IMG/VR virus record: IMGVR_UViG_3300030329_001359
Coordinates: 32,001-96,000 of that record
DNA length: 64,000 bases
From: a virus
Reading direction: 5' to 3' (one strand)
Below, in pieces: positions 5,401 to 64,000 of the stretch; within the stretch, counting starts at the first letter, position 1, and the number at the start of each line of letters is the position of its first letter. The notes below the pieces were generated by a model. That model did not search any database. It had not been told where the DNA came from and saw only the letters and a program-made list of their open reading frames with translations. A program made the translations under genes and the position numbers.

Positions 5401-8400
5401 ATTATAACCATTGGTAAGGTCAAGCCTTAGCCTATTATAAGTATCAAGAATATGTTTTTCATCCATAGCATAAGTATCATACTTGATTGCTTTCATATAT
5501 TCATGTATACCTATAGCTTGTTGTATTCTCATATTTTTAACATATGGAACAATTTCTCTTGCTACTCTTATTTTAGAATCTTTTAAAGTTTCTCCCTCCA
5601 ATAGTTCAGGAGTATAAGTTTTTATAAAATCAACAATCCATTTCTTAACAGCTTTATCTTTTCTCAGCCAATCTTCAAGCATTACTTCAACATGGTCTTT
5701 TCTTAACCTACCTGCTGCAACTTCAGCGTTCAAGTAATTCTCGAAGTCAGCCTCTGTAAAGTCAGCATATTGGTTATCTGCCTTACCCATTAAAATAGAA
5801 TTATCATTTCCACCTTTCATTCCAATAATAAATAATAAATTAGCATCATCTTTGCCATGCTTTATAACTTGTCTTATATAGCTTTTATGTTCAGAATCTT
5901 CTATACTGTTTAACACTTCCTCTGTAAGTTTTGTACTTGCTTGCCAATATATATATTCACCTTCATCATTCAACCATTCATTCATTATATCTTTCGTTCT
6001 AAAATGAATAATTTTTTTATTATGCTTTCCAAGTCTTAAATCTTCTTCAAAGAAATTTGTAGTTTCGTACTGAGATTCTTTTGTTTTAGTGTCCAATCTT
6101 TCTACTGGGGAAACCCTAACTCTTCTTTTTGTCTTTGTTTTTTTCCCTGTTGGTAGTATCAAAGACCTATAAACCCTAGTAAACAACCCTTCTTGTTGCT
6201 TTGGAACATATCTAGGTATCTTATTTCTATCTTTAAGATATGTTATTTTTAAATCATTTAAATCATCTTGATTATATTCTGTTTTTATATTAACTCTATA
6301 TGATTTTTCTTTAGCTTGTTCTTTAGCCCAATCTTTAATAGCCTCAATATATTCTTCAAATGTATCATTCTGTTGAGCCATTTCAGAAAGAATTGGTACT
6401 TGAGCTTTTGATATATGTACACCAAATACTCTATGAAAAAATTCTGATTGATGTAAATCTGAAGGAATGTCACTAGAGCTATGCCTACTGCTATTCACAC
6501 CAGTATCATTGCCATCCTCATCAGTAGCTCCTTGTTCTTGAAACTTTGCATAAGGGTCATACTCTAATCCTACCTTACCTGCCCATCTACCTTGATAAAA
6601 CTCTTCAGCAACAAAGTCGCCAAGAGCATCGTCAGGTACTTCCCTGAATATATTTCTTAATCTATTAGCAAATTGTTTTAACCATATTTTAATCCTGTTA
6701 AGAATGCTCCTGTTTTGTATCCTATTGGCATAATACTCGCCTATGTATTGTACAAGTTTCTCTTCACTTCCAAATTGATTAATAGCTCTTTTAATTAAAT
6801 CTGTATCTTTAAGTAATCCTACATATATATGAGCATATTCGTGTGGCATAGTATCTAAAGTAGCATCTGTACTCGACCATAAGGCTACATTACTTATAGC
6901 AACACCAACAGCTCTCTTACCATTCTCTTCCAGTACTCCTTCAAATGTAGCATCTGTTATGTAATTACCAAAATGTCTACGAAGTCTTGATACAATTTTT
7001 TCAGCAAGTTCAGCATTAGAAGTTATTTTAGGTAATGGAGATACTTTAACCTCTTGGAACATATTTATATTTTCATCATCATCCTGTTCAATATCCCCTG
7101 TATTAGTATCACCAGTTTCTTCTTCTGTATTACTAGCCATATTACCAAGAACTGTATCTAGGAAATTACCTATTGTTTCATCATCTGGCTCTTCTCCAAG
7201 ACCTATTGGAGTTTCATCCTTTTTTTCTTTTACTTCTTCTTTTGGAGGAAGTTCTTGAGGTATGTTTTCTGAAAGTTTATTAGGCTCTATAATTGAATCA
7301 ACAAAAGCTTTATCAAAATCTAAAGATACACCAGATTCAGGTGTTAAAGATGTTATCTTACCTCTCTTATTATATTTAACTTGGAATGGAAATATTGCTA
7401 TCTTCTCAACTCTAACACCATATTGATTCTCAACTAATCGTTTATAAGCACTTAATTGAGCTTCATGTTGTTGTTTTTTACTTCTTTCTATTCCATTGCC
7501 CTTCCATACTTTAGTGTAAGCCCCTGTTTTTGTAGATGCTTTACTTGTTTTGACATCCCATATTTGTATATTACCAGTTTTAGGATTCAAAACAAACAAG
7601 TCTACTTCCCCAGCTACACCACTTCCATCATCCCAAACAATAATATTATTAGCGAGTACCCTAAGACCTTTGGCATCTATTTTTTTCTTAACTTCTCCTA
7701 AAGCTCTCATTAAGTCATCAAATGCATCTTTAGACATATCTATGTCTGTATGTACTGGTACCTCACCATCTGTAAAGAAAGCACGAACAAGACCATCAAC
7801 TGTATTACCTGCTTTGATTGCACTTTTGTCTGGTTCTCCACTATATGTAGTACCTATAACATTTGAAACCCTTTGGTAACTAACTCCATCAATTAAATAA
7901 TCTTTAGTTCTTTGTTCAGCTCTAAATTGATTTTCATTTACTTCAGATTCTAATTCTTCTATTGATTCTGGAGCTGTAGCTACGTCAGGAGCACCTTCAG
8001 GTAATTCAGGTTTACCTTCTATATCTGCTGTTGTAACATCATCTTTAGATTTTAAAGTTGCTCTAGGTCTTGCATATCTTACACCCCCAACTATTCTTCC
8101 TTTAATAGCAGATATAAGATTAGACCTTTCATCTGAAGTCATATCATCTATGTTTCTTTTACCAGTAACATTTTCAGAAAAATCCATAAACTCTTTATTA
8201 TCATCCCAAGCTATGCCCTTAGCTTCGGCTTCTCTATGTACATCTTCAGCAGTAACTTCAGCAGGAGTTGTTAAAGTTTCAACTTTTCCTTGTGAAGCTT
8301 CTATATTTGATAACATTCCCTGCAATACCTTTACATTAGCAATCTGGTCTTCCCCAATTTTCCTATTCATTGCTGATGTTCCAACTTCACGATTAATATA

Positions 8401-11007
8401 ATTAAGAATTGCACCTCGCCTACCTCTTTGTACTTCGAGAGAATATTCAATACCTTTTTTAATATCAACTCCATTACCTTGAATATCAACAGTCGAAATA
8501 AACTTTGCTGGTAAGCTTTTAAATACTTCTTGTGATTCTGGAGAAGTAAGTTCTTTTGGTATTTCAACTTCTGCTAAAGTTTCAACTTCTCCTTTTAAAG
8601 CTTTCTTAAGCATTTCTCTTTCATTAGGGAGCATTTTAGAAATTGAATCTGTTCCTATAAGTTTCTTAGCAAAATCTTTAAATTCTTTACTATCAATACC
8701 TCCTTCAAATTTATTTTTTGCTAATTCGGCTATAGATTCTGTTGGTGAATCTGGTGCTTTATCTGGCTCTCCAAATATATCAGCTTCAGTTACTTCATCT
8801 GTAGTAACTTTAGGTTCAGGCTTAGGTGTTACCTTTTCTCTAAGAAGAGCTTCTACTTCTTGATTTTTATCTTGCCTAACCATCTCCTCATTTTTAGTTA
8901 AAGGCTTACCTTCTGCTATCTTATTAGCTATATTTACAAGTACACCTTGAGGAACTTCACCAGTTTGTACAAATTTCTTTCTTATAGATTTAGTTATAAC
9001 TTGAGGTTTTACTTCTTTAGGAGCTTTTGTTTCAACATCTGGAGTAGTTTGTTCTTGTATTTGAGAAGGTGTAACATATTTAATCGGTCCAGTTAGTTTA
9101 CCATCTTCTCCAACTTCTCTTATCTTATACATTTTTGGACCAGCACCAAGAACAGCAACTTGTTTACCTTCAAAGCCTTGTATATTTTTACCTTCAAGCT
9201 TGTCAGGAAGAGTAATTGTTTTACCTTTTAATGTTTTGTCTGGTACATTTACTTTAGGTTTTTCTTCTGCAACATCAGCACCAGTAATCTTTTTAATTAT
9301 AGCCCTCTGAGCTGCTTCAATATCTTCTGGTTCTTCTTCTAATTGTACACCTATATCTTTATCTGAAGGTTCTTCTTTGGGAACAAATAAAGATTCATCT
9401 ACTGGCTCTTCTAACCAAGCTGGGGAAAAGTTAATATCTGGAGCTTCAGGTGACTGAGTTAAATCTGCTGGAGCTTCTTTCTCTACAATGCTACCCTTTT
9501 GAGCAAATGCTTTAAGAGCATTAATCATCTCTTGAGTATCTTCTGTATTTATCTGTCTTTGATTTGGATTTTGTTGGTTTAACTTTTCAGTAGCTAACCT
9601 TAATATTGAATCTCTATCTGGATGATTTTCTATTGCAGATATAACAGTAGGGTCATCAACAATTAATGAAAGAATTGCATTTGAAGAAGACTGTGCTTGT
9701 TTATTTTTTGCAATAGACTTAGAAGTTTTATCATCTCCCTCTTTAAAATCATCCCAAAATTCACCCATTCTTTCTCTTGGGTTAGCAAGAGCAGATAAAT
9801 AATCATCTACAACATCAGCACTTGGTGGTCTAGCATCTGGATCATCTGGGTCAAATGGTTCAAAAGCATTAGCTGCAGCTTTATTCTTAACAGACTCTAG
9901 TATTCTTTCTGATTGCCTTTGAGATACAGCTTTACCCCGCCCAGGTAAAAATATTCCAAATGGAACACCCATGACACCACCACCATAAGCTTCTTCTAAT
10001 ACACCTTCTGTTTTAGCTATTTCTGTTAGTGTCTTTAAGAACTCTCTATTGTTTTCAAATCCATGCTCTGTTGCATATAAACTTGTTTGTTCTAATGTAG
10101 CTTGAGACCATTCAGTTCCACCTTCAATCATAGCTTTTTCTACCATATTGGTCAATCTAGCTACGTTATTCATACCCATTCTTGCGATTGTTCCCTTATT
10201 AGCCCCAGACTCTACAAGAGATTCAGTAATTTTTCTCATCATGGCTTTCTCTGGAATCATTTCTTTAAACCCAGGGACGCCTTTCATCAATGACCTAGCA
10301 CCAGTTCTTTCAAGCATTGAAGCTAAGATACCATATGTAGTAGCCGCTAACCCAGCGTATTCCCTAGCTTCTTCTGGCTCCATACCCATATCATCAACCA
10401 TTAAATTCATTTGTTCTATATAATTACTAGAGCTTTCTAATAAGAACATAGGAGCAAGAGAGGCAACTGTTGCTGTCAAAGACGTACCACCAGTAGAAGG
10501 AGCAAGTGCGATACCCATAGCAGTGCCAGCAACACTAGTTGCCAAAGAAGGAATAACTTCAGACATAGCCCTCATAGTCGTGTCAAATCCAGTCCAAGAA
10601 GGCTCATCTTCTTTCCATGAATAATAAGCTTGAAGTTCAGGGTCTCTAGCTACGCTTTCAGCTACAGACTCATTAGCCCATTTTCTTAAATCTTCAGATG
10701 CTTTTACTGCCCATTCAGAACTTGAAAGAGCTAAAGCATTTCCAACAGAACCAGCCACCAAGTTATGACCCATAGTATCTGCTGTATGTATCATTCTTTT
10801 TAAGAAACCAGCAGAATCTTTCTTCCCTTCCATTTCATACCTAGCAACACCAGAAGGCAAAGAACGAAGATGTTGTCTTCGTATCTCAGCCATCGTTTCA
10901 TCTGTGGCTTGTATTACTTGTTGTGGACTAGGTGTTTCTCCAAGCTCTTGAAACCTTTGAAGAACTTGAAGCTTAACGGTCATTCTATCTGGCAGACGTT
11001 CAGCCAT
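2440..11007 (-). CDS. Giant virion polyprotein (2855 aa): hydrophobic N-terminal region, acidic linker, PD-(D/E)XK nuclease, zincin-like HExxH domain and C-terminal two-barrel RNA polymerase (RNAP-1)
   Basis: Beta'-like barrel VILHRQP...VLDGDWDGDH (DWDGD at 4102-4116). Beta-like barrel DGDG/AIKTV/AMKH/FDHLNTNNESK. Nuclease AGEVDL..IWDVKTS..QLSAY (~7300-7900). HEYAH at 6829-6843 followed by EEKLV. Confidence 0.85.
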   Translation of the reverse strand: MAERLPDRMTVKLQVLQRFQELGETPSPQQVIQATDETMAEIRRQHLRSLPSGVARYEMEGKKDSAGFLKRMIHTADTMGHNLVAGSVGNALALSSSEWAVKASEDLRKWANESVAESVARDPELQAYYSWKEDEPSWTGFDTTMRAMSEVIPSLATSVAGTAMGIALAPSTGGTSLTATVASLAPMFLLESSSNYIEQMNLMVDDMGMEPEEAREYAGLAATTYGILASMLERTGARSLMKGVPGFKEMIPEKAMMRKITESLVESGANKGTIARMGMNNVARLTNMVEKAMIEGGTEWSQATLEQTSLYATEHGFENNREFLKTLTEIAKTEGVLEEAYGGGVMGVPFGIFLPGRGKAVSQRQSERILESVKNKAAANAFEPFDPDDPDARPPSADVVDDYLSALANPRERMGEFWDDFKEGDDKTSKSIAKNKQAQSSSNAILSLIVDDPTVISAIENHPDRDSILRLATEKLNQQNPNQRQINTEDTQEMINALKAFAQKGSIVEKEAPADLTQSPEAPDINFSPAWLEEPVDESLFVPKEEPSDKDIGVQLEEEPEDIEAAQRAIIKKITGADVAEEKPKVNVPDKTLKGKTITLPDKLEGKNIQGFEGKQVAVLGAGPKMYKIREVGEDGKLTGPIKYVTPSQIQEQTTPDVETKAPKEVKPQVITKSIRKKFVQTGEVPQGVLVNIANKIAEGKPLTKNEEMVRQDKNQEVEALLREKVTPKPEPKVTTDEVTEADIFGEPDKAPDSPTESIAELAKNKFEGGIDSKEFKDFAKKLIGTDSISKMLPNEREMLKKALKGEVETLAEVEIPKELTSPESQEVFKSLPAKFISTVDIQGNGVDIKKGIEYSLEVQRGRRGAILNYINREVGTSAMNRKIGEDQIANVKVLQGMLSNIEASQGKVETLTTPAEVTAEDVHREAEAKGIAWDDNKEFMDFSENVTGKRNIDDMTSDERSNLISAIKGRIVGGVRYARPRATLKSKDDVTTADIEGKPELPEGAPDVATAPESIEELESEVNENQFRAEQRTKDYLIDGVSYQRVSNVIGTTYSGEPDKSAIKAGNTVDGLVRAFFTDGEVPVHTDIDMSKDAFDDLMRALGEVKKKIDAKGLRVLANNIIVWDDGSGVAGEVDLFVLNPKTGNIQIWDVKTSKASTKTGAYTKVWKGNGIERSKKQQHEAQLSAYKRLVENQYGVRVEKIAIFPFQVKYNKRGKITSLTPESGVSLDFDKAFVDSIIEPNKLSENIPQELPPKEEVKEKKDETPIGLGEEPDDETIGNFLDTVLGNMASNTEEETGDTNTGDIEQDDDENINMFQEVKVSPLPKITSNAELAEKIVSRLRRHFGNYITDATFEGVLEENGKRAVGVAISNVALWSSTDATLDTMPHEYAHIYVGLLKDTDLIKRAINQFGSEEKLVQYIGEYYANRIQNRSILNRIKIWLKQFANRLRNIFREVPDDALGDFVAEEFYQGRWAGKVGLEYDPYAKFQEQGATDEDGNDTGVNSSRHSSSDIPSDLHQSEFFHRVFGVHISKAQVPILSEMAQQNDTFEEYIEAIKDWAKEQAKEKSYRVNIKTEYNQDDLNDLKITYLKDRNKIPRYVPKQQEGLFTRVYRSLILPTGKKTKTKRRVRVSPVERLDTKTKESQYETTNFFEEDLRLGKHNKKIIHFRTKDIMNEWLNDEGEYIYWQASTKLTEEVLNSIEDSEHKSYIRQVIKHGKDDANLLFIIGMKGGNDNSILMGKADNQYADFTEADFENYLNAEVAAGRLRKDHVEVMLEDWLRKDKAVKKWIVDFIKTYTPELLEGETLKDSKIRVAREIVPYVKNMRIQQAIGIHEYMKAIKYDTYAMDEKHILDTYNRLRLDLTNGYNPHTGDGSLNSKVMIVPRGTIVRKTMDDGTVLESGVLGDGDGHTQSGSRWFNRLGENIGTPELSAIKTVIRHKTFNENKEDDYIAMKHLQMVPFKGEEYYRPGENFPFARVIEGADGTYFEALDENGNVTGEFDHLNTNNESKQRAGKFRDDYVIHDLLESDVKIIMNPVGSSNTAAHPIALGEILLDPSIIENPDTPEAMNLAKAIMKHYGDVAKDYLSMLKSMRKNPKTFLNAVKRTREEGRIPTDAEKWMDLLEETGGEGVAHKYITNLFVSYLKNRYFTDGIYKGRQLAKGNATHAYLKPARHLNNLIDDGNVAVSYDNSTVRFKAIEHWASLNRDSIVNAIPYAKDWDANGLWKHFSKNMDEKEKLDALNEALMQGDGVNVILHRQPIAKVTGVVTRRVQFLVEGGHGDTMFLKNSDVVEVLDGDWDGDHGFAEFISGEFLQAYQDWQNSETFEDRNTVVALPMFGEKLEDVEDSNTSYVSKDSRDAAILGEAAVSGAQGRATNAKVVMTQLAYKEAKIYLNSMEGGFISAKNPSDSVVMDYIELDENQLNKDNGDLIDLIYRNGDTIVDADGNEVNIISDIPTRDAPIEEREVAGSLSIDNKGEPMYLKTTVEGELAILLQMAVDNKKFGLLSKIGWNNDFVIRRIFKRSDGEELTKGNIKTMRLVFKVQNFSGQRSGLTTARNVASMSRIIEDSRDLTSRFFTDENKKAPKEELGIQMIKEFQKMVERMRFKPKNLERPALIQTNGKITPGESLIASVGIAYNDMVGDIQDVEKAGSHFLDWSEEAYQAAHSITVDELGNDPSFDADKWSSNDLSLAYEFLVSNRIDVLNEKGEVTKKTSFNETFWNIYHEAQRESTDDVPLHISADYNEFLNKFVEDHVEDWLSLPDSVQDLVTSLFLKGIGKRTNVLTLMPIDLMSHRVLTKFLPLFEKNLKALKESDFSAQTGNKKAMAGYKKLSQLSIQGSKAYKKAGQQIQPRCK

Positions 11008-11016
11008 ATATTACCT

Positions 11017-13104
11017 TTATCGTAACTCTTCTATTCTATCGAATTGAGACCTATGTTTAAATCGTGACCCTATACCTTCTGAAAATCTAATTTGAGGAGC
11101 TTCGTCTAAACCTATCATTAAAGGCTCTCTACCACTTCCATATATATAATAATCCCAAAGACCAGAATCTCCTATTTTCGCAGCTACATCTCTTATTTCT
11201 TTTAACTCATCTACTAAATCAGCACCTTCTTCATGTAGAGTTTCCCAACCTTCTCCCATATATGAATAAGAATCGAAATAACCTTTACGATAATATTGCA
11301 ATTGGTCATCGCCTTCAGCCTCTAACCATTCTGAAAACTCATCTTTCTTATCTCTTTCTATTTGCTCAAGCCTTGCTATAATCTCAACAGCCCTTTCAGA
11401 CGCAGGAGTACCATCTCCTTCCATACCAGTTTCATAATAAGCAGTACGAGCTTGTTCATCTGTCCAATTAAATGAAGGTCTCATTGCTTTTCCTCTGTAC
11501 TCATTCATGTATCCAATGACATCGTTACCATAACCAGCATCTCTAGCATTTTTATATATAGCTCCATACTCCATATTAAATTCATCATTGAATTGTTGCA
11601 TTGCTATTAGCTCATCTACTTCTTCTTGGTTATTTACATTATCTACAATTTCATTGCCAAGTCTATCTGTTCTTGCACCAACATTACGACCTCCACTAAC
11701 AGGGTCTGCATTAACACCAATAGAATTTAATAATAAACCTTTTTGGTCATTAATCCCACTATACAATTCTTTAGCTTTACTATATTCTCTAAAAAATGAT
11801 ATAGCTCCATTAATAACAACTTCAGGATTGGCTAATGGAATTTCTATTCCTAATATTGTACCACCATCTAAATCTAATTCATCTATTCTCTCAGCTGCAT
11901 ATTTAAGCTGACTATCTTCATGTGGCACAAACATAAACTTCTCACCATCTTTTCTTACAAAATCAGCTTTACTTGATTTGTATTCAGGATTATCTTTTAC
12001 AAATTTATCCATTTCAACTATTTGACCACTATACCATAAAGCTAATGACTCGTAATCATTACGAAAACCAGAGTCAATATCTTGCAATCCAATTTCATAC
12101 TTATCAAGTTCTCTAATAGCACTAGTCATTCTTTGTTCTAGCTTAGACATATATTGTTTTGAACCAGCAAGACCAGACCTATCTGGTATTGTATCTCCTT
12201 GAAAAAATTCTAATACTGGATTGTCCTCTATTTGTTTAGCTGTAAAATCAGAACCCATTTGAGTAACAACCCCATTAAATTCTTTAACATTTGCATCAAG
12301 TTGTTTCTGCATAGCCTTTGCAGTTACTTGAGCTGCAGGAGGAAGTAATCCTATTTCTTGTTGTCTCTTTATTACATTTGCTCTATTTGCTTGAACAGCG
12401 TATACATCATTAAGAACTTGCATTTGTTCTTTTGTATATTGACCAAAGTGACTTCTTAATCTACGTTGTACTTCAGCTTCATTTCCTCCAAACTGTTGAA
12501 CAGTAGCGTTATAATCTTCTTCATTAATACCTATGAAGCCAGCCATTTCCCTTTCATCTACAACCCAATCTCCCATCACACCTTGAGCCATTTCTGATTC
12601 ATAGAACTGTTTAGACATTTCTTTTAATGAATTATCTACAGCGTCGTATTCTCTTTTATGTTGATTTAATACAGCAATCCTTTCTTCTAAATCTTCATTT
12701 TGACCAGTAACTGCACTAATTTTCTCACCAACACTAGCACTTGCTAATTGATTAAAATCAAGTTTAGCTATATTGTCTTCATATACAAGGTCTAATATTC
12801 CCCTAGCGTCATCTGTTTGGTCTTCAGCTTTTAATTGACTTTGTTCTTGAATAGAAATTCCTAATCCTTCTAAACCAGTTTCAAGAACTTTAACTTCTTT
12901 TTCCAAAGCTCTTTGGTCTTGTAAAGCAGAATTAAGAAGATACATATTAGCTTGATGTTTCCTAGCTAAAGCTGTTTCGTGAGCACGAGCTTCTTCTCTT
13001 CTTGTTTCAAGATTGGTCGCCAAAGTAAGCTTCATGTCAGCATCGACTTCAGCTTTCTTTTGTCTTTCTAAAGACGCTAATAATTGTAAAAATTGACCAG
13101 CCAT
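11017..13104 (-). CDS. Putative internal virion/ejection protein (695 aa)
   Basis: Helical, coiled-coil and acidic; lies between small Ala/Gly-rich ejection-type genes and the giant cargo gene. Confidence 0.55.
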   Translation of the reverse strand: MAGQFLQLLASLERQKKAEVDADMKLTLATNLETRREEARAHETALARKHQANMYLLNSALQDQRALEKEVKVLETGLEGLGISIQEQSQLKAEDQTDDARGILDLVYEDNIAKLDFNQLASASVGEKISAVTGQNEDLEERIAVLNQHKREYDAVDNSLKEMSKQFYESEMAQGVMGDWVVDEREMAGFIGINEEDYNATVQQFGGNEAEVQRRLRSHFGQYTKEQMQVLNDVYAVQANRANVIKRQQEIGLLPPAAQVTAKAMQKQLDANVKEFNGVVTQMGSDFTAKQIEDNPVLEFFQGDTIPDRSGLAGSKQYMSKLEQRMTSAIRELDKYEIGLQDIDSGFRNDYESLALWYSGQIVEMDKFVKDNPEYKSSKADFVRKDGEKFMFVPHEDSQLKYAAERIDELDLDGGTILGIEIPLANPEVVINGAISFFREYSKAKELYSGINDQKGLLLNSIGVNADPVSGGRNVGARTDRLGNEIVDNVNNQEEVDELIAMQQFNDEFNMEYGAIYKNARDAGYGNDVIGYMNEYRGKAMRPSFNWTDEQARTAYYETGMEGDGTPASERAVEIIARLEQIERDKKDEFSEWLEAEGDDQLQYYRKGYFDSYSYMGEGWETLHEEGADLVDELKEIRDVAAKIGDSGLWDYYIYGSGREPLMIGLDEAPQIRFSEGIGSRFKHRSQFDRIEELR

Positions 13105-13622
13105 TATAACATCGCCAATAGTTCTTCTCGTTGAGCTTCAAGACCACCCATAATTTCTTCATGTCTAAGAAATGCTGACCTTTCAGCTTCTTTATCTCTT
13201 AATGTTATTTCTTCCATGCTCATATCGTAAGACTCTTTTAAGTCTCCCATAGTTTCTTCATACTTTGCTTCAACATCTACCTTAGCTCTTTCAGATGCTC
13301 CTCCCCCGTATCTGCTTTTTCCAACTAATTGGGTAAGGGCAGTTCCAACTTCCTCTTCTAATCCTTCTGCTTTTTGCCCAGTTCCTAGCTGAAGTTTCTC
13401 AGTAGCAAGAGCAGTTTGTTGTTTAATCATATCCAACTCATCTTTATAAACAAGTTTTTCAGCATTTAGTTGAGCTAGTATATCTTGAGCTTGTCTTTGT
13501 CTTAAATTTCTAATTTTCGTTTGTTCTTCTTTACCAGCCACAGCAGATTGATGAGACCTATAGCCTGAATAAACAGCCGAACCTGCTGAAACTGCTCCAG
13601 CTATTGCTGTTACACCAGCCAT
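13104..13622 (-). CDS. Putative small ejection protein (T7 gp14-like position and composition)
   Basis: Ala/Gly-rich hydrophobic N-terminus MAGVTAIAGAVSAGSAVY followed by coiled coil; TAATG-coupled. Confidence 0.55.
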   Translation of the reverse strand: MAGVTAIAGAVSAGSAVYSGYRSHQSAVAGKEEQTKIRNLRQRQAQDILAQLNAEKLVYKDELDMIKQQTALATEKLQLGTGQKAEGLEEEVGTALTQLVGKSRYGGGASERAKVDVEAKYEETMGDLKESYDMSMEEITLRDKEAERSAFLRHEEIMGGLEAQREELLAML

Positions 13623-14011
13623 TATAAAGCCTTCACATAGGTATCTAAACCTATGTCTCCACTTTCATATTTTCTACGTTTCATAAATTTTTTTAATTTA
13701 TTATTTTCTAAAAATGTTAATACCATTTTATATCCATCTCCTTTAGCTAAATCTTCTATTGTTTCACACAATAAAGATAAAGCTTTAATAAATTGTTTAG
13801 GCTTTGCTTCAGGATTCTTTACAATCCATTCTACTAAAGCTGTTAATCCATTTGTCTTTACATACCAACCAGCCACAATTGGCAAGTCTTCATCCATTAT
13901 TAGAAAGCCAGAGTTTGTCAATAAGTATGGATGTACTGGTTCCCAATCGTGAGATTTCCACCATTCACTTATTGTTTCATAATCGTCTGAGTCTATCAAT
14001 TTAATTTTCAT
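13622..14011 (-). CDS. GNAT-fold acetyltransferase-like protein
   Basis: 129 aa with GNAT-like pattern (GFLI..DLPIVAGW..VEWIV..AKGDGYKMVL); typical position next to podovirus ejection genes. Confidence 0.65.
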   Translation of the reverse strand: MKIKLIDSDDYETISEWWKSHDWEPVHPYLLTNSGFLIMDEDLPIVAGWYVKTNGLTALVEWIVKNPEAKPKQFIKALSLLCETIEDLAKGDGYKMVLTFLENNKLKKFMKRRKYESGDIGLDTYVKAL

Positions 14012-14970
14012 TTTAAATCTTCATATCGATGATAATCAAAATCTTTAGGGTTTAACTTCATATCCCTTAATCTTTGATTAAACTCAGTAAAACTTTCTCC
14101 TTCCATTGGAGATGCTACATCTTTTTCTGTAACATATTCAGCTTTTTGTTTATTTAATTGTTCAAGATGGTCTAACTCTGCTGCTTTTTCAGCTTTTGTT
14201 TTAAAGTTTTTTAAATATTCTTTATGTTCAGGACTTCCAGTTTTGACAACTGTTCCATCTGGTAATTTAAAATCTATTGGTTCTGGTGGCTGACCACCAG
14301 TAGCATTTTGTTTTTGTTCTTGTTGATTATTATTTTCAATAACTGTAGTTCCATCTAAACCAGCAGAATCAGATTGTTCCATTCCAGCAGCTTTCATAGC
14401 TTCTTTTTCTGCCATTGCAAGTTGGTCTGAAGTTATTCCACCTACTGCAGTTTCTGTATCTGTACCAATACTTTCATATAAACTCTTGTATCCAGTAATT
14501 GTACCAGATTCATCTCTTATAGCTGTTCCCATCCTAGTAGCAGCAACAGAATCTGCTCTACCAACATTCATTAAGTCAGCAACAGAAAATTCTTTACCCC
14601 CTATAGTTTGAGTTTCAACTTCTTCACCAGCACTCTTAAACCATCTATCCATCCAATTATCAGCTCCTTGATAACCAGATTCTTCAAATGTTCCCCCCAA
14701 ACCAGAACCTTCAAATACAGTTCTAGCTCCTTCTTCAGCTTGTTCCCAAGACTTTATATTCTCTCCTATCGCTGATGATAGTTGAGCGACTCCACCAGCA
14801 ATGCCCTGAACTAAACCTAAACCAGATTGTACAACAGCTTCTTCAGCAAGCCTTTCTTGCCTATCAGCCCTTACTCCAGCTGTATAGTCCCTACGAACCA
14901 TTGAACGACCTCTTATAGCCGAACCTAAACCTGAAGGTGCTTTATAACCATTTGACATAATCGAATCCAT
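14008..14970 (-). CDS. Putative internal virion protein (320 aa)
   Basis: Gly/Ala-rich amphipathic segment GLGLVQGIAGGVAQLSSAIG; located in the ejection block. Confidence 0.5.
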   Translation of the reverse strand: MDSIMSNGYKAPSGLGSAIRGRSMVRRDYTAGVRADRQERLAEEAVVQSGLGLVQGIAGGVAQLSSAIGENIKSWEQAEEGARTVFEGSGLGGTFEESGYQGADNWMDRWFKSAGEEVETQTIGGKEFSVADLMNVGRADSVAATRMGTAIRDESGTITGYKSLYESIGTDTETAVGGITSDQLAMAEKEAMKAAGMEQSDSAGLDGTTVIENNNQQEQKQNATGGQPPEPIDFKLPDGTVVKTGSPEHKEYLKNFKTKAEKAAELDHLEQLNKQKAEYVTEKDVASPMEGESFTEFNQRLRDMKLNPKDFDYHRYEDLK

Positions 14971-15004
14971 TTAAATTTAATGCTTGTAATTTATATTTCA
15001 TAGT

Positions 15005-15676
15005 TTAACTTAGGTCTACTTCTACTTTCCAAACTGATGTCGCTAACCAATATGTAGTCCCAGAAGGGTCTGTATTTGCTTGAATACTTATACCAGTTTT
15101 CTGTCCAATGTCTACAGTTAAGCTATCATAGGGAGAGTTAATAAGAAAATCAGAACCATTTACCACAAAATACTTTCTATCATCTGTTGATAAAACATTT
15201 CTATGTGTATAACTACCCAATTCATTTATCGCAGTATCACCATCTTTTACAAAATCTATAGTAAATGTAAAGTCAGCATTTGCTGTTACCGATACTGGTC
15301 TAACTAGAATTTTGTGAAATGTCATTTTAAAAGGAGGAAGGTATGCATCAAAATATCTCATATTAGTATTTTCTTCATGTGCTCCCCACGGAAAATAATG
15401 TTTATCAGTTCCTATATCATCTTGAAAACTATGCTGAAATGTTCTGTAGTCTGTAAATTTAGTATAGCTTAAATCTCCAGCTTCAACACTTCTAGGAGTT
15501 ATTTTATTAAGAGACTTATCAATATTAGCTGAAGAATTGAACTGAGTATGAAATAATTGACTTCCTTGTTTTGTATACATAGCAACGCCTTTAGAGTTTC
15601 TAGCAAATACTATTTGTCCATCTCTCATTGAAGATGCTGAAGGAGGGCTATTTCTAAATGTAATATTTTGTTGCAC
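15005..15676 (-). CDS. Putative tail accessory protein (223 aa)
   Basis: Directly downstream of the nozzle gene; beta-rich C-terminal domain. Confidence 0.4.
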   Translation of the reverse strand: MQQNITFRNSPPSASSMRDGQIVFARNSKGVAMYTKQGSQLFHTQFNSSANIDKSLNKITPRSVEAGDLSYTKFTDYRTFQHSFQDDIGTDKHYFPWGAHEENTNMRYFDAYLPPFKMTFHKILVRPVSVTANADFTFTIDFVKDGDTAINELGSYTHRNVLSTDDRKYFVVNGSDFLINSPYDSLTVDIGQKTGISIQANTDPSGTTYWLATSVWKVEVDLS

Positions 15677-57582: not shown

Positions 57583-57615
57583 AAAGGGGTAGCTTGTATA
57601 GTGCCCCTTTTTTTT
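57583..57615. terminator. Terminator between convergent operons (probably bidirectional)
   Basis: AAAGGGGTA...TGCCCCTTTTTTTT. Confidence 0.75.
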
Positions 57616-60334
57616 ATGCTACCTGATTAGCCTGCCTATTTTTTATGCTATCAAGTAAAGATAACATTTGTTTGTTGCGACCCCTACTTGTCCTAGGTGA
57701 TTTAGATATACCTTCGAGAGCAAGCATTATATTCTCACCTTCTGTTCTTATGTCTTTTGATGCTTTCTTTTTCTTCTTAGCATATGAAGGAATTGGTATT
57801 GATTTACCAACTACAGGTAGTTTACGAGCTTGTTTAATCCAAGCAAGTTTACGTTCTTTTAATTCTCTTGATGGATATATGCCTGTCTGTAATGAAACAA
57901 GGTCACCAAATCCAGCACCATTATACATTCTAGGCCCAACAATAAATAATTGTCTTGCTATTTCTGAATTAATAGTTCGAGCTACATCAAATACTTTTTC
58001 ACTCTTTCTAGTACCCGAGTAATCATGGTAACCAGCTAAGTAACCTAATAACCCAGGGTCACCACGTTCAAAGTTTAAAAATAAATCATAGAAACCAAAT
58101 ACATTACCAAGTGTAACCATGTCAGCAACAAAAGGACCACCTAATGTACCTATGACTGGACCTTTACCAAAAAATGCTTGTCTCTGTCTCTCTTTATCGC
58201 CAGAAGCCATGTCTAAGAACTGTTTAGCTCTTTCATATGTATCATTCTGTATGAGATTACCGAACTTACTATTTGTAGCTGTACTTAATACACCGTCAAT
58301 AAATAACTGCATCATGCCCAATCTATACAATCTCCAGGCCCTTTCAGATTTCCAATCACCTGCTAATATATCTTCAGCTCCACGTTTAGCTATCTTTCTT
58401 TGGTAATTAAAAAAGTTAATACTATATGTAGCAAACTGACCAAGAACAGCACCTTTAGCCGTCCTCAATGCTTTAGGCTTAGCAAATGGAGAATACTCAT
58501 AGTGTATCTCTTTTACCATTTCAGCTGCAAACCTACCAGCTTCATTATTTATATGTGTTTCTACTTGCTTAGATATTGTATCACCATACTCTGTCTTAGT
58601 AAAAAATTCTGGATGTTGGTCTATAAACCTTTCAATATTCTCTCTCTCTGAGCTTAATTGTTTATGTCTTTTTGCAAATGCCACTCTAAATGTTAGATTA
58701 CGATTGATTTTATTTTCAACCCATGACATAGGTTTACCAGCTTTCTGAGCAACTGTTTCCAAACCAGATAAAAACTTTTCGCCTGTAGTGTCTGTTTTCC
58801 ATGTCATTACTTCTTGACCATTAACTCTACTTACTTGAGTATCTGGAAATAATCCTGTAACACCAGCTAATTCTCTAGCTTCTTCAAAGAACACACCATG
58901 TCTTTCCATCTCATTCTTTAATACCGTATCCATTTCTCTTGTTTTTAAATACTGCTCAGCCTCATACCATCCTTTACCACCAAAGTAAACAAAGTTTTGC
59001 AATGACTGGGTTGCATTTCTAAATGCTGAACGTATATTGAGACCTAGTTTAGATATAAATTCCCATGATGTTATTCCTCTAGCTAGAGACCTATATAAAG
59101 GACTCTGTATGTTATATCCTAGCATGGTTGCATGAGTATCAGTTAAATAATCTATATAAACTTTTGCAGCATCAGCTGTCTGCTCATTGCTCATATCTCT
59201 AAGCTTTCTAACTCCATCTATTAATGTAGCCGATGTATTTACAGTATAATTAAATCTAGTTACATCACGAATATAATTATCAAGAACACCAATAACATTT
59301 TTATTTCTACGGTCAGTAGGTAGAGCTGTTTTCTCTTTAAGATGACCACTAATAGGTACTCTATCAAGTACATTCTTTACCATAGAACTCACATATGTAT
59401 TTAGTTGTTCCATGTTAACAGAACCAGAATCTTTAGTTTCATACACACTATCAGTAATAGCTTTCATTGTAGGGAATATATTAAGCAATGAAGTAGGGAA
59501 ATAATTTTCAGAAGGCTTTAGATTATCATTCAATTCTTTCAGCTTATCTATAACATTTTTATATTCAGCAGCATTGTTCTGACTCTCAAGTACTCTTACA
59601 TATTTAGACAATCCATTTCTTAGACTATTAAATAACTGTGGTCTTATTACTTGCCACTCATCAACAACAGGCTTAAATATCTTATATTTATCTTGTAAGA
59701 TAAGTTTAGGATTTCTTAATACTTCATCAGCCATCTCAAATACTTTGAATTGCTGTTCTTTAGCAAGGTTAGCTAAGTTTTCTTGGTAGTATTCTTCAGC
59801 TGCAACTTCTTTAGCTGGGCTGGTAGCAGATTCTTCTAGTAATTTAGTGTATTCATTATATCTACGCTGTAATTCTCTCCTAGCTTTTGACATATTAGGA
59901 GCTTTTATTCTTTCAGCGATAGCCATTTCTTTAGAGATATTACTTAAAGAGTCTGCAATCTTTATCATACTTGCATTGTATTTATCTTTCTCACCTCTAA
60001 AGTAATTATGATTAATAACAAATTGGTCAAATGTTTTCTTACCTACTGGATTTGTTTTAAGAAATTCTTCAGGTAAATAAAACAACTCAGCAAGCTTACC
60101 AGGTGTTCTCTGTTTTATCTTTGCTTGAAATTTATCTATCCTTTTACTAAGCCTATCTAAACTCTTTTCACTAGGAGCATCTCCATAATCAAAATCTTTA
60201 CCAGTAACAGCTCGATACATCTTCTTATATTCACCGCCACTATTAGATGTTAATCTTACTGTTAAAGGGTCGTCAAACCATTTATCTATTGTTTTATCTA
60301 TTTTTTCTTGTAATTCTTTTGGTGTGCAAGCCAT
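57614..60334 (-). CDS. Large helical internal virion/ejection protein (partner B, 906 aa)
   Basis: True start MACTPK by TAATG overlap; NYFP, KLGLNIRSAFRNATQ, VENKINR, IHYEYS..LGQFATY, as in large polyvalent/ejection proteins. Confidence 0.7.
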   Translation of the reverse strand: MACTPKELQEKIDKTIDKWFDDPLTVRLTSNSGGEYKKMYRAVTGKDFDYGDAPSEKSLDRLSKRIDKFQAKIKQRTPGKLAELFYLPEEFLKTNPVGKKTFDQFVINHNYFRGEKDKYNASMIKIADSLSNISKEMAIAERIKAPNMSKARRELQRRYNEYTKLLEESATSPAKEVAAEEYYQENLANLAKEQQFKVFEMADEVLRNPKLILQDKYKIFKPVVDEWQVIRPQLFNSLRNGLSKYVRVLESQNNAAEYKNVIDKLKELNDNLKPSENYFPTSLLNIFPTMKAITDSVYETKDSGSVNMEQLNTYVSSMVKNVLDRVPISGHLKEKTALPTDRRNKNVIGVLDNYIRDVTRFNYTVNTSATLIDGVRKLRDMSNEQTADAAKVYIDYLTDTHATMLGYNIQSPLYRSLARGITSWEFISKLGLNIRSAFRNATQSLQNFVYFGGKGWYEAEQYLKTREMDTVLKNEMERHGVFFEEARELAGVTGLFPDTQVSRVNGQEVMTWKTDTTGEKFLSGLETVAQKAGKPMSWVENKINRNLTFRVAFAKRHKQLSSERENIERFIDQHPEFFTKTEYGDTISKQVETHINNEAGRFAAEMVKEIHYEYSPFAKPKALRTAKGAVLGQFATYSINFFNYQRKIAKRGAEDILAGDWKSERAWRLYRLGMMQLFIDGVLSTATNSKFGNLIQNDTYERAKQFLDMASGDKERQRQAFFGKGPVIGTLGGPFVADMVTLGNVFGFYDLFLNFERGDPGLLGYLAGYHDYSGTRKSEKVFDVARTINSEIARQLFIVGPRMYNGAGFGDLVSLQTGIYPSRELKERKLAWIKQARKLPVVGKSIPIPSYAKKKKKASKDIRTEGENIMLALEGISKSPRTSRGRNKQMLSLLDSIKNRQANQVA

Positions 60335-63300
60335 TAGCAAATCCCATTTTCGTTACCATGCCTAGATGATGTTCTTTTCATAGCCTTTCTATTTGATTGT
60401 AAGGATTCAGGGCCTCCGTATATATCACCAGCAATAGACTCTTTCCTTCCTGTAAACAAATTCCTACCATCATGTGGTTGACCATAAAACAACTTTACTT
60501 GATTCATCTTATGTCTAAAATACGAATTTATACCATGTACTGGTACAATTTTACCACTCATTGTAAGAGCATTTCTAGGTATTCTTCTCATTTCAACAAG
60601 AGATGATAGATTAGCTATAAGGTCAAGACCTCCGCCTGGAAGTTTATATGATATATAATCAAGAGATAAATCTCCTGTTAGACCTAATACATTAAGAACA
60701 TTTTCATTTACTTTCTCAAATTGTTTCCATTCTCTTAAATCAGCAGGTAAAGATTCATTTATAGATAGTCTTTGAGCAATCGTGTCTACTTTTTTAACTA
60801 AATCAGATTCATATTCTATTAAAGGAGAACCACCTTCTGAATCTTTAAATGATAAAGCATTATAATTTTTAAGGTCTATTTGCTCAAAATTATACTTAGG
60901 GTCTATCTCACCTCTAAGCCATGCTAATTGATTGCTTATAGGTTTAGCAATCTCTATCATTAAATGGTCAGATAAAGTTGTATTTAATCTTTCAAAGAAC
61001 CTAAGTCCCAATGTAATAAATTTAGTTTGACTATTAACTTTATTAAAACCAGGCATCATTGTACCATTATGATATGTAACAGTATTAGTAGAAATTTTAG
61101 GTGTCATGAGTGAAAGTACAAATTGCTTACCAAGACCAGGGTGACTTCCTTCCCAGTCATAATATAATTTTTCTAACTTTATTATTGCTTCATTCATTAC
61201 AGAATTAGCATCCATGTCATCTGTTAATCTATTATTAAATAACTCCCACCATTTCTTACCATATTCACCTTTGAATTGTCTAATATCTTGTTCCCATTTC
61301 ATAGCTGTAGATTTTTCTACAGTTGCAGGATTAAGACCTACACCAGTAAGCCTTGAAAGGACATTGTATGTAGCAAGTATTTGAGCATAATCATCTGAGT
61401 TAACACCTCTTATCTTTAATCCAAGTTGTTTATTTCTTGTATCCCATATACTGCTAGTTATTTGTGGTTTTATTTTTTCTATAGCTTTAAATCTTTCACT
61501 TCTACTTCTTATTTTTGAGAAATCATGAGTTTTACCATATTTATCTGTCCATGTTCCTCCTGACGCTAATGTACGATAAATCTGTCTTAGTATTCTAGTT
61601 CTTACAGCCTTTTGAACACTTTTACTAGCCATTACCTCTTTAGTTAGGTCTGATTTTAAATCTCTAAGCCTAGCATGGCTCTCTCCAAAACTACTAGCCA
61701 TCTCATGGTTACCGTTCCTTTCCATCCTTCTTTGAGACCTTCGATATCTACGCATTCTATAGTCTATGCTGTTTATAGCATTTAACTTATCAAAATCAGA
61801 ACTGAATCCTTCAACTATCTTTCTTACGGCTCCGTCAACATCTCTAGTATCTCCTAGTAAAAAGTCATATATAAATCCATCTGTTTTATATTGAACATCA
61901 GGGTTGACCTTCTTCATTGACATTCTATCCATGCCTGCAAGGTTAGCAATCATTCTATCAGCTGCTATCATTCCAGTATTTTGACCAGCAGCATCTACAC
62001 CAGAAACTGCATCATCAAACCTAGTGTCTCTTAATCTAAATGGGTCTACAAAACGACCTTGTTCTTTAAAAATAGAATCAATATCATCACCACTCCATTT
62101 ATTTTTAGAAAGACCTCTTCCATTTCTCAATCCCCAATAAACATATCTATTTAAATTGCTCATTATATAAGAATATCTTTGAGTATAATCTATGAGAGTA
62201 TCGTAATCAACTTTCTTTTGTTCACCACTTTCAAATACACTTGTACGAAGACCTAAGAATCTTTTATAGGGCGTCAAAGCTAAACCAACCATATCTTGTT
62301 CAAGCTTATCAAGCCTAACTCCATTATCTACCCAAGATTTAGTTTTTTGGTCATACGTTTGCTTAGAGAATATACCAGGGTATGTTTCACCATCTCCAAA
62401 TAATAACTTACTCTCCCACTGCTTGTCGAATGTACTTTTATCATAACCTCTTCCACCAGCATCAACAATTCTTTGTATATCTGTAGCTAATAAATATTCT
62501 ACTTCTTTTATTTTATCAGCATCTCCTAATACTATTCTTCCTCTATCTAGTTTTATATTAAATCCTTCAACATCAGTATAATTTGCTCCACGATATGACT
62601 TTAAAAATTGTATTGTATTTTTGGCTTTAACAACAATACCTCTATACAAAGAACTATTTGCTTCGCTAAAATTATAATTCATTAAAGCTTTTCCATTAAA
62701 TGGATTTAAACCATGTATTGATGTTCTTTGTTGTGTGCCTTTTACAGAAGGAACTTCACCAGACTTACTATCCCAAAATCTTAATATATCAGAAGGTGTA
62801 TCCCACCAGTAATTTATCTTGTCTATATCAAAATCCATCTCAAGTCTAAACCATCCATCAGCATGATTTATTCTAGCTGCATTACCAGTTAAATCACCAA
62901 ATCCTTTTAACCCAACAATAACTTTATCAGATGAACGAGTTGTAGGTGTTCTATGAGCAACCAGTGCTATTTCATATCTTTTCCCTTCTATGCCATCGTT
63001 AAAAGCTTCAACAGACCTATAAAGGTCATTGAGTGTAACAGCTTGTTTACCATCTAATAAAGATTGAATTTCTTTTGATAATTCATTAGCTCTGACTATC
63101 TTATCTTTTGCTGTATAATTATGCTCAATAAATCTTATTCTTTCTGGAGCAACTAACTTACCTTTATTTGTAGCATCTATTTCTATCTGTCCATATGTCC
63201 ATACATCTCTTGATACAATATCAGCAGGATTACCTGACCTTTCTCCATTAAGCCATTCAGTTTTAAATAATGTATTTCTTAAATGACCTTTTGTTCCAAA

Positions 63301-64000
63301 ATCTGTAAAATCAGGAACCACAACACTTTGACTGCCGTATTCATTACGAGGTGTTAAGAGATTTCTTTTGTCAATTAATTGACTTTTGATTTGATTCCTT
63401 ACAGTTCTTTTGAATGGTATATATGTTGGGTCACCTCCATGACTTATCCATCTTTCAAACATCGCCATTTGGTCAGTATCGACATCTAATTCATCAAAGT
63501 TTATTTTAAGCTTTGTTGCTATTTCTGATGTTTTACCATCTCCAAATATTGTATTAGCCTCTGTTATAAAATCTCTTACTCCTCTGACTAATTGCCATTC
63601 GTAAAAAGAATTATTTAATTTAGGTGTATTAAAATCATTAGCTACTTGCAAAGGTAGAGTTGATGATTTCTGAGGCTTTACAGCACTTGCTATTGAGAAA
63701 GTATTTATAGGTAGTGTAATACGATTATTAGATAAATCACTTTCTGTTCGTATTAAGTCAGACATAGAATTAAAATCGCTCATGTATATTACTTTTTCAG
63801 AAGCACCGTCAGGAGATTTTTCTCCTGTTATGTCAGTACCAGACATCTTATTAGCAGAATCCATTATAACCATGTCAATCTTATGTCTTTCTAAGTATTT
63901 ATCCCATGTTCTATCTGTTATCCAAGCTGTTTTATCTAAGAATACAGCATTGCCATTTGATGATGATGCTCCAACAGCTTTAAGATGTTCTACTCCGCTA
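60334..64000 (-). CDS. Two-barrel RNA polymerase, crAss/phi14:2 gp66-like (RNAP-2), N-terminally truncated by the right edge
   Basis: Frame stays open to 64000: HLKAV..FLDKTAW..HKIDMVIMDSANK (beta-like barrel). VAHRTPT..GDLTGN..EMDFDIDK (DFDID at 62821-62835). Confidence 0.85.
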   Translation of the reverse strand, partial: SGVEHLKAVGASSSNGNAVFLDKTAWITDRTWDKYLERHKIDMVIMDSANKMSGTDITGEKSPDGASEKVIYMSDFNSMSDLIRTESDLSNNRITLPINTFSIASAVKPQKSSTLPLQVANDFNTPKLNNSFYEWQLVRGVRDFITEANTIFGDGKTSEIATKLKINFDELDVDTDQMAMFERWISHGGDPTYIPFKRTVRNQIKSQLIDKRNLLTPRNEYGSQSVVVPDFTDFGTKGHLRNTLFKTEWLNGERSGNPADIVSRDVWTYGQIEIDATNKGKLVAPERIRFIEHNYTAKDKIVRANELSKEIQSLLDGKQAVTLNDLYRSVEAFNDGIEGKRYEIALVAHRTPTTRSSDKVIVGLKGFGDLTGNAARINHADGWFRLEMDFDIDKINYWWDTPSDILRFWDSKSGEVPSVKGTQQRTSIHGLNPFNGKALMNYNFSEANSSLYRGIVVKAKNTIQFLKSYRGANYTDVEGFNIKLDRGRIVLGDADKIKEVEYLLATDIQRIVDAGGRGYDKSTFDKQWESKLLFGDGETYPGIFSKQTYDQKTKSWVDNGVRLDKLEQDMVGLALTPYKRFLGLRTSVFESGEQKKVDYDTLIDYTQRYSYIMSNLNRYVYWGLRNGRGLSKNKWSGDDIDSIFKEQGRFVDPFRLRDTRFDDAVSGVDAAGQNTGMIAADRMIANLAGMDRMSMKKVNPDVQYKTDGFIYDFLLGDTRDVDGAVRKIVEGFSSDFDKLNAINSIDYRMRRYRRSQRRMERNGNHEMASSFGESHARLRDLKSDLTKEVMASKSVQKAVRTRILRQIYRTLASGGTWTDKYGKTHDFSKIRSRSERFKAIEKIKPQITSSIWDTRNKQLGLKIRGVNSDDYAQILATYNVLSRLTGVGLNPATVEKSTAMKWEQDIRQFKGEYGKKWWELFNNRLTDDMDANSVMNEAIIKLEKLYYDWEGSHPGLGKQFVLSLMTPKISTNTVTYHNGTMMPGFNKVNSQTKFITLGLRFFERLNTTLSDHLMIEIAKPISNQLAWLRGEIDPKYNFEQIDLKNYNALSFKDSEGGSPLIEYESDLVKKVDTIAQRLSINESLPADLREWKQFEKVNENVLNVLGLTGDLSLDYISYKLPGGGLDLIANLSSLVEMRRIPRNALTMSGKIVPVHGINSYFRHKMNQVKLFYGQPHDGRNLFTGRKESIAGDIYGGPESLQSNRKAMKRTSSRHGNENGIC

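What the first reader, a model, noticed from the sequence alone, without database searches (positions are those of the whole stretch)
60320..60345. Terminal cysteines face each other at both RNAP-partner junctions
Seen: RNAP-1 ends ..QIQPRCK and partner A starts MASDCK (2425-2450). RNAP-2 ends ..NENGIC and partner B starts MACTPK. In the given translations of RNAP-1 (2855 aa), RNAP-2 (1179 aa) and partner B, I see no other Cys. Inference: tail-to-head disulfides or a shared metal site could chain the cargo proteins, fixing stoichiometry and ejection order through the tail, with release in the reducing cytoplasm.
Basis: partly seen in the sequence, partly recalled or inferred. Interest (0 to 1): 0.8.

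Follow-up and report, generated by a model that had tools for sequence, protein, structure and literature searches.

The report
Terminal cysteine pair links phage cargo proteins
Two giant, otherwise cysteine-free proteins of a marine phage (an RNA polymerase of about 2,900 residues and the protein encoded next to it) each keep one cysteine at the ends that face each other; over a hundred relatives keep the pair and fused forms lack it, which points to an untested end-to-end disulfide like one seen by cryo-EM in a cyanophage.

Summary
Giant-1 (2855 aa) has one Cys, at 2854. The next protein has one, at residue 5 (1259 aa once completed from the genome). "RNAP-2" is cut by the window edge: it is 2993 aa with one Cys, its last residue. 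Partner B (906 aa) has one Cys, at residue 3.

The pattern is conserved:
- All 81 partner homologues have one Cys at residues 3-11.
- All 12 giant-2 homologues have one Cys at the last or second-last residue.
- About 44 of 49 long giant-1 relatives keep a C-terminal Cys.
- All 47 IMG/VR loci holding both genes keep both.

Three relatives that fuse polymerase and partner into one chain have no Cys. They fall in two separate clades.

The same pattern occurs in phi14:2 gp67/66/65, crAss001 gp47/50/49 and cyanophage A-4L gp27/gp26, where cryo-EM shows a Cys1715-Cys5 disulfide (PMC12002296). A tail-to-head disulfide is therefore the best reading, but it is not shown here.

The two junctions are orthologous sites in two phages, not two links in one virion.

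This scan has already noted the same rule on many other crAss-like genomes.

The parts
2440..11007 (-). Giant-1, 2855 aa. N-part resembles crAss001 gp47 (PD-(D/E)XK-like region, aa 1037-1235), HExxH at aa 1389-1393, C-part is a two-barrel RNA polymerase. Single Cys at 2854.
2446..2448 (-). Cys2854 codon (TGT) of giant-1, second-last residue
   Evidence: Invariant column in alignment A1
2..2440 (-). Partner A. The window holds its first 813 aa; the full gene is 1259 aa (genome 30661-34440). Single Cys at residue 5.
2426..2428 (-). Cys5 codon (TGT) of partner A
   Evidence: Invariant C5 in A6
60334..64000 (-). Giant-2, C-terminal 1221 aa of a 2993-aa ORF that runs off the window end (genome 92334-101315). 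Single Cys, the last residue.
60337..60339 (-). Cys2993 codon (TGC), last residue of giant-2
   Evidence: Invariant in A2
57614..60334 (-). Partner B, 906 aa, single Cys at residue 3
60326..60328 (-). Cys3 codon (TGC) of partner B
   Evidence: Invariant C3 in A3
4102..4116 (-). DWDGD catalytic motif of giant-1 (D2298, D2300, D2302 invariant)
62821..62835 (-). DFDID catalytic motif of giant-2 (D2161, D2163, D2165 invariant)
11017..15676 (-). Four Cys-free small proteins upstream of giant-1 (695, 172, 320, 223 aa), presumed further internal or ejection proteins. The 172-aa one weakly resembles T7 gp14.

Best explanation
Each of the two ~55-kb podophage genomes in this record encodes a Cys-free block of internal (ejected) virion proteins. 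The block ends with a giant protein of about 2,900 residues that contains a crAss/QDE-1-type two-barrel RNA polymerase, followed by a partner of 900-1,260 residues.

The single Cys at the C-end of the giant and the single Cys at the N-end of the partner most likely form one intermolecular disulfide inside the particle. That would join the two chains head to tail into a linear pseudo-polyprotein, the covalent equivalent of the peptide bond in relatives whose two genes are fused.

Shown here: the Cys pattern, its conservation, its loss on fusion, and the polymerase fold. Inferred: the bond itself; that it forms without a phage enzyme after assembly or release into oxic water; that it keeps the pair at 1:1 and lets them leave the capsid as one thread; and that thiol reduction in the host cytoplasm separates them.
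For: 1. Cys pattern and depletion.
2. Conservation. Partner B family 64/64 and partner A family 17/17 have exactly one Cys at residues 3-11. Giant-2 family 12/12 have exactly one Cys, last or second-last. Among giant-1 relatives of 1800 aa or more, 41 have only a Cys in the last 1-7 residues and 3 more have that plus internal Cys. C2854, C2993, C3 and C5 are invariant columns beside the catalytic Asp.
3. Pairing. All 42 IMG/VR loci of the partner B lineage that hold both genes, and all 5 of the partner A lineage, keep both Cys. Intergenic gaps range from -11 to +212 nt, so this is not a signal in the overlapping DNA.
4. Fusion. P0148, P0152 and P0154 (3651-3902 aa) carry a partner-A-like C-terminal 1200 aa (HMM E 1e-106 to 1e-138) and have no Cys. 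P0152 aligns to unfused P0144 up to its last residues, with Ser in place of the Cys. The fused forms sit in two separate, well-supported clades.
5. RNAP-only split relatives P0191 and P0203 carry a Cys at both ends. So does phi14:2 gp66 (Cys3, Cys2179), flanked by gp67 (only Cys is its last residue) and gp65 (only Cys3). crAss001 gp47/gp50/gp49 follow the same rule.
6. Precedent. A-4L gp27 has its only Cys at 1715 of 1717 and gp26 its only Cys at 5. The cryo-EM paper PMC12002296 reports the Cys1715-Cys5 disulfide in the packaged pre-ejectosome.
7. No conserved metal ligands lie near either Cys.
Against: No experiment or structure exists for these proteins. The bacterial cytoplasm where virions assemble is reducing, and no thioredoxin, glutaredoxin or Erv1-type oxidase was found in the record, so when the bond forms is unexplained. 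The partners and giants show no detectable sequence similarity to A-4L gp26/gp27, so the precedent is an analogy, not shown homology. Two fusion events are few.
Confidence: 0.65

Rival explanations
1. The two terminal Cys jointly bind a metal ion or other ligand, forming a non-covalent clasp between the two proteins rather than a disulfide.
For: Loss of both Cys on fusion fits any bridging role.
Against: Two thiols alone make a poor site. No conserved His, Asp, Glu or second Cys lies within 6 residues of either Cys, and the Cys position floats (3-11 from the N-end, 1-7 from the C-end). The one solved case shows a disulfide.
Confidence: 0.08
2. Each terminal Cys acts on its own, for example by linking to another virion component (core, portal) or a host factor, or by forming giant-giant and partner-partner homodimers. 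The facing position would be incidental.
For: Stoichiometry and contacts in the particle are unknown. Structural proteins of the record do contain Cys.
Against: Both Cys vanish together when the chains are fused, in two separate clades. Both are present in 47 of 47 split pairs. RNAP-only split forms gain an N-terminal Cys exactly where a new chain break exists. A4 shows the hetero-link.
Confidence: 0.12
3. One reading: one virion carries two polymerases and two partners chained through both junctions.
For: Both cassettes lie on one 111-kb IMG/VR record that CheckV rates complete.
Against: The record has two full collinear sets of terminase, portal, capsid, tail and replication genes at 35-89% aa identity. 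It has a 10-N scaffold gap, and its first 85 nt repeat 57715-57799 exactly. Giant-2 also occurs on a 51-kb contig, and relatives are 52-57 kb.
Confidence: 0.05
4. Chance or annotation artefact: the Cys happen to lie near the ends of Cys-poor proteins.
For: Ejected phage proteins are known to be Cys-poor.
Against: Placement P is about 1e-6 per unit, and the Cys are invariant across more than 140 homologues.
Confidence: 0.01

Closest known systems
Cyanopodophage A4 (Anabaena phage A-4L) ejection proteins gp27 and gp26, Cys1715-Cys5 disulfide in the pre-ejectosome (PNAS 2025, PMC12002296)
   Same: Adjacent genes at the end of the internal-protein block, with the same gene order (terminase, portal, capsid, tail, small internal proteins, giant, partner). 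The giant's only Cys is 3 residues from its C-end and the partner's only Cys is at residue 5. The bond was seen by cryo-EM.
   Different: No detectable sequence similarity. The A4 paper does not describe gp27 as a polymerase. It reports one bond in one phage and does not state the Cys-free background, the conservation or the loss on fusion.
crAss-like virion RNA polymerase modules: phi14:2 gp67-gp66-gp65 (gp66 structure 6VR4) and crAss001 gp47-gp50-gp49 cargo proteins
   Same: Two-barrel polymerase with a DxDxD motif. The giant-1 model matches 6VR4 and QDE-1. The giant-1 N-part matches crAss001 gp47. The same terminal-Cys rule holds at every chain break. Fusion into polyproteins in some phages is noted in the phi14:2 preprint.
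   Different: Here the gp67/gp47-like part and the polymerase are one chain, so there is one junction instead of two. The genome is about 55 kb with an SU10-type capsid protein and a P22-type portal, not a ~100-kb crassvirus. Neither the phi14:2 preprint nor the crAss001 atlas mentions cysteines in these proteins.
Cysteine suppression in ejected proteins of N4-like phages (N4 gp50-52, DEV gp71-73; PMC11445570)
   Same: Giant virion polymerase and companion ejection proteins almost devoid of Cys, explained there by passage through the oxidising periplasm.
   Different: Those proteins have no conserved terminal Cys. Here the depletion is complete except for one conserved, facing pair.

Membership tests
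Head-to-tail disulfide-linked ejection protein pair (A4 gp27-gp26 type) | Upstream giant internal protein with its only Cys within a few residues of the C-end | tested here: met
   Giant-1 C2854 of 2855 and giant-2 C2993 of 2993. Conserved.
Head-to-tail disulfide-linked ejection protein pair (A4 gp27-gp26 type) | Next-encoded protein with its only Cys within about the first 10 residues | tested here: met
   Partner A C5, partner B C3. 81 of 81 homologues.
Head-to-tail disulfide-linked ejection protein pair (A4 gp27-gp26 type) | A physical disulfide between the two in the virion | not testable with these tools
   Needs virions; no isolate exists for this lineage.
Head-to-tail disulfide-linked ejection protein pair (A4 gp27-gp26 type) | Sequence or fold homology to A4 gp27/gp26 | tested here: inconclusive
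   phmmer and hhalign find nothing. The partner A model is too poor to compare folds (pLDDT 53.5).
crAss/QDE-1-type single-chain two-barrel virion RNA polymerase | Invariant DxDxD metal-binding motif | tested here: met
   Giant-1 D2298/2300/2302 (DWDGD) and giant-2 D2161/2163/2165 (DFDID).
crAss/QDE-1-type single-chain two-barrel virion RNA polymerase | Two-barrel polymerase fold | tested here: met
   Giant-1 aa 1830-2620 model (pLDDT 86.7) matches QDE-1 at E 8e-10, phi14:2 gp66 (6VR4) at E 2e-7, then beta-prime subunits. Giant-2 is linked only indirectly, by profile-profile match to giant-1 (probability 90.8%, E 1e-6).
crAss/QDE-1-type single-chain two-barrel virion RNA polymerase | Packaged in the virion and ejected | not testable with these tools
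   Inferred from its position at the end of the structural operon, the Cys depletion, and proteomics of phi14:2 and crAss001 homologues.
Order Crassvirales | crAss-type capsid, portal and terminase, and a genome of about 100 kb | tested here: inconclusive
   Pfam gives an SU10-type capsid protein and a P22-type portal. Units are about 55 kb. No phylogeny of hallmark genes was made.

The most novel reading that the evidence does not exclude
Terminal-cysteine stitching is a general, ancient alternative to gene fusion in podophage ejection machinery. It would be shared by crassviruses, this ~55-kb marine lineage and cyanophage A4. Giant Cys-free proteins are tied end to end into one linear thread that can be packaged at fixed ratio and pulled unfolded through the tail. 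The host's reducing cytoplasm then cuts the thread, a redox-gated counterpart of polyprotein cleavage.
Probability: 0.4. Interest if true: 0.8.

Novelty: new member of a known kind. Interest (0 to 1): 0.62.

Why it matters
If the bond is real, it explains how phages package megadalton polymerase complexes at fixed ratio and deliver them through a narrow tail. It also gives a simple sequence rule for finding ejected proteins and their order in uncultured phages: Cys-free chains with one Cys at each facing end. The rule makes cheap, decisive predictions for the cultured models phi14:2 and crAss001. Here it extends from crassviruses to a different, smaller marine podophage chassis. Gene fusion and fission provide a natural control.

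Tried and rejected
- Complex prediction with the giant-2 C-terminal 190 aa and partner B residues 1-806, single sequences: no verdict (score 0.03). This is neither for nor against binding.
I used the search for related loci instead.
- The partner A model (aa 1-1199) was poor (pLDDT 53.5) and Foldseek found nothing. Whether the partners share a fold with A4 gp26 or crAss gp49/gp65 is open.
- Direct sequence or profile searches of the giants against PDB sequences found nothing.
- BLASTP and hhalign found no similarity between partners A and B, or to phi14:2 gp65, crAss001 gp49 or A-4L gp26. The idea of a duplicated paralogous cassette in one genome was rejected in favour of two genome units.
- A DNA-level signal at the TAATG overlap was rejected because relatives keep the Cys with gaps of up to 212 nt, and crAss001 gp47 is not adjacent to gp50.
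- No thioredoxin, glutaredoxin or Erv1 family gene was found in the record. The Erv1 search rang in no control genome, so it is uninformative.

Full report
**What is in the sequence**

Both junctions lie on the minus strand.

At 60334 the upstream ORF ends ...NENGIC, with TGC at 60337-60339 and its stop TAA at 60334-60336. The stop overlaps the ATG of the next gene (60332-60334), which begins MACTPK with TGC at 60326-60328. At 2440 the upstream ORF ends ...QPRCK (TGT at 2446-2448) and the next gene begins MASDCK (TGT at 2426-2428).

The 2855-aa protein has one Cys, at 2854. The 906-aa partner B has one Cys, at 3.

Two details needed correction once the whole record was laid out:
- "RNAP-2" is open to the window end. 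It is really 2993 aa (genome 92334-101315), and its single Cys is the last residue.
- Partner A is 1259 aa (genome 30661-34440), with a single Cys at 5.

The small proteins encoded just upstream of each giant have no Cys at all. Other ORFs of the record carry 0.81% Cys. The two blocks of 5524 and 4715 residues should therefore hold about 45 and 38 Cys, but hold 2 each (P 3e-17 and 2e-14). Both lie within 5 residues of the shared junction (P about 1e-6 per unit).

**What the proteins are**

- *Giant-1, N-part.* Residues 1037-1235 match crAss001 gp47, annotated "RNA-polymerase subunit" (tblastn 2e-27; phmmer 4e-34). This overlaps a weak PD-(D/E)XK signal. An HExxH motif at 1389-1393 is nearly invariant in relatives.
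- *Giant-1, C-part.* D2298, D2300 and D2302 (DWDGD) are invariant. An AlphaFold model of residues 1830-2620 (pLDDT 86.7) matches QDE-1 (E 8e-10), the phi14:2 virion polymerase 6VR4 (E 2e-7) and then bacterial beta-prime subunits. Giant-1 is therefore a single-chain two-barrel RNA polymerase fused to a gp47/gp67-like N-part.
- *Giant-2.* It has an invariant DFDID (D2161, D2163, D2165). Its catalytic region matches that of giant-1 at profile level (hhalign probability 90.8%, E 1e-6). I did not fold it.
- *The partners.* They match no family in Pfam or PHROGs. They do not match each other, nor phi14:2 gp65, crAss001 gp49 or A-4L gp26.
- *The head genes.* They are SU10-type capsid, P22-type portal and a terminase.

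**One phage or two**

The 111,116-nt IMG/VR record contains two complete, collinear gene sets: small and large terminase, portal, capsid, tail genes, cargo block and a plus-strand replication block. They share 35-89% amino-acid identity.

Several further points bear on this:
- The record has ten N at 277-286.
- Its first 85 nt are identical to 57715-57799.
- A protein identical to giant-2 is also on record from a 51-kb contig.
- Related IMG/VR contigs cluster at 52-57 kb.

I read the record as two related ~55-kb phage genomes joined in assembly. A real co-integrate is not excluded. Either way, the two junctions are orthologous positions in two diverged genomes. They serve as an internal replicate of the pattern, not as two links of one cargo chain.

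- Partner B family: 64 of 64 homologues (28-90% identity) have exactly one Cys, at residue 3-11.
- Partner A family: 17 of 17 (42-100% identity) have one Cys, at residue 4-7.
- Giant-2 family: 12 of 12 proteins of about 3000 aa (38-100% identity) have exactly one Cys, last or second-last.
- Giant-1 family: the C-terminal 1100 aa were searched against 50%-identity representatives, giving 49 hits of 1800 aa or more.
  - 41 have a single Cys within the last 7 residues.
  - 3 have that plus one or two internal Cys.
  - 1 is a C-terminally truncated ORF.
  - 1 is an unrelated repeat protein.
  - 3 have no Cys at all.
- The terminal Cys are invariant alignment columns, alongside the catalytic aspartates.
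- In IMG/VR, every locus holding both genes keeps both Cys: 42 of 42 in the partner B lineage and 5 of 5 in the partner A lineage. Intergenic distances range from -11 to +212 nt.
- Beyond the Cys itself, the flanks show only a Pro two residues after the partner's Cys, in 36 of 81 partners, and a preference for small residues (mostly Ala) just before it. No metal-ligand residues are conserved.

**Fusion and fission as a natural experiment**

The three Cys-free long proteins are P0148 (3651 aa), P0152 (3902 aa) and P0154 (3654 aa). An HMM of the partner A family matches their C-terminal ~1200 residues at E 1e-106 to 1e-138. They are polymerase-partner fusions.

P0152 aligns with the unfused P0144 right to the latter's end. 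Ser stands where P0144 has its Cys (KSNV against KCKV), and a linker then runs into the partner.

A quick maximum-likelihood tree was built from 49 polymerase regions. Rows under 1800 aa or covering under 550 profile positions were left out. It places P0148 as sister to unfused P0135 (support 100). It places P0152 and P0154 as sister to unfused P0144 and P0162 (support 100), in a different major clade. There were therefore at least two independent changes of state, each coupled to presence or absence of the Cys pair.

The converse also holds:
- Relatives in which the polymerase is a separate gene (P0191, P0203) have a Cys at both ends.
- In giant-1 and giant-2, where the gp47/gp67-like part is fused to the polymerase, there is no Cys at that internal seam.

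**The same rule in studied phages**

- *phi14:2.* gp67 (1797 aa) has its only Cys as its last residue. gp66, the crystallised polymerase, has only Cys3 and Cys2179 of 2180. gp65 has only Cys3.
- *crAss001.* gp47 has only Cys2339 of 2341. gp50 has Cys5, Cys2404 and one internal Cys. gp49 has only Cys5.
- *The literature.* Neither the crAss001 structural atlas (PMC10172136) nor the phi14:2 preprint mentions cysteines in these proteins. The preprint does note that the three proteins are fused in some phages.
- *Known background.* Cys suppression in ejected proteins is known for N4-like phages, and is attributed to passage through the oxidising periplasm (PMC11445570).

**The experimental precedent**

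I checked it.

In the A-4L genome, gp27 (1717 aa) has Cys1715 as its only Cys and gp26 (1114 aa) has Cys5 as its only Cys. The gene order matches the one here. I found no sequence similarity to the window's proteins.

**Mechanism**

The best-supported reading is one intermolecular disulfide that joins the giant's C-end to the partner's N-end, giving a linear pseudo-polyprotein. This explains four things:
- why the Cys must be terminal (a linear thread, not a branched one);
- why all other Cys are purged (no stray bonds in an oxidising particle or periplasm);
- why the exact position and flanks float;
- why fusion makes both Cys dispensable.

Fixed 1:1 packaging, joint ejection and release by cytoplasmic reduction are inferences. 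When the bond forms is open. No thiol oxidoreductase was found in the record, so spontaneous oxidation after assembly or lysis is the default.

**What failed**

A complex prediction gave no verdict. The partner model was too poor for fold comparison.

**Novelty**

A single such bond is published for A4. The Cys-free background is known for N4-like phages. I did not find the conserved rule and its coupling to fusion and fission in the searchable literature. This scan has already recorded the rule on many crAss-like genomes.

This window adds a two-protein version, in a non-crAss-looking ~55-kb marine podophage lineage. It also adds a clean fusion control.

Noticed in passing
Whole record; window 1-64000 = genome 32001-96000: The 111,116-nt IMG/VR record holds two collinear, diverged ~55-kb phage genome units (35-89% aa identity, two full sets of head, tail and replication genes). 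It has 10 N at genome 277-286, and its first 85 nt are identical to genome 57715-57799. Probably two related phages joined in assembly, although CheckV calls it 100% complete.
   Followed up: partly
window 6829-6843 (-) and 7282-7893 (-): Giant-1 carries a nearly invariant HExxH (PHEYAH, aa 1389-1393) and a PD-(D/E)XK-like region (aa 1039-1242). The latter is the only part directly similar to crAss001 gp47. The roles of this protease-like motif and nuclease-like region are unknown.
   Followed up: partly
window 13104-13622 (-): The Cys-free 172-aa protein has a weak, sub-threshold match to the T7 gp14 internal virion protein family (PF24072, E 0.007). This fits an ejection-protein block.
   Followed up: no
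P0191, P0203 (relatives of giant-1): Polymerase-only proteins of about 1480 aa have exactly two Cys, one at each end. This matches phi14:2 gp66 and implies a three-protein chain in those phages.
   Followed up: partly
L060 (IMGVR_UViG_3300030012_002820): One partner A relative has a second Cys at residue 25 besides Cys3. It is the only partner with two Cys among the 47 IMG/VR loci that hold both genes.
   Followed up: no
L013 (Anabaena phage A-4L) gp28: The A-4L peptidase-type ejection protein gp28 has only two Cys, a CxxC pair at 1036 and 1039 near its C-end.
   Followed up: no
window 52545-56582 (+): The plus-strand block encodes DUF932, a D12-class N6-adenine DNA methyltransferase, a zinc-ribbon protein and a DnaB-type helicase. 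No DNA polymerase was noticed among the ORFs scanned.
   Followed up: no
Partner N-termini (81 homologues): A Pro lies two residues after the conserved Cys in 36 of 81 partners (C-x-P). The residue before the Cys is usually small or Lys.
   Followed up: no
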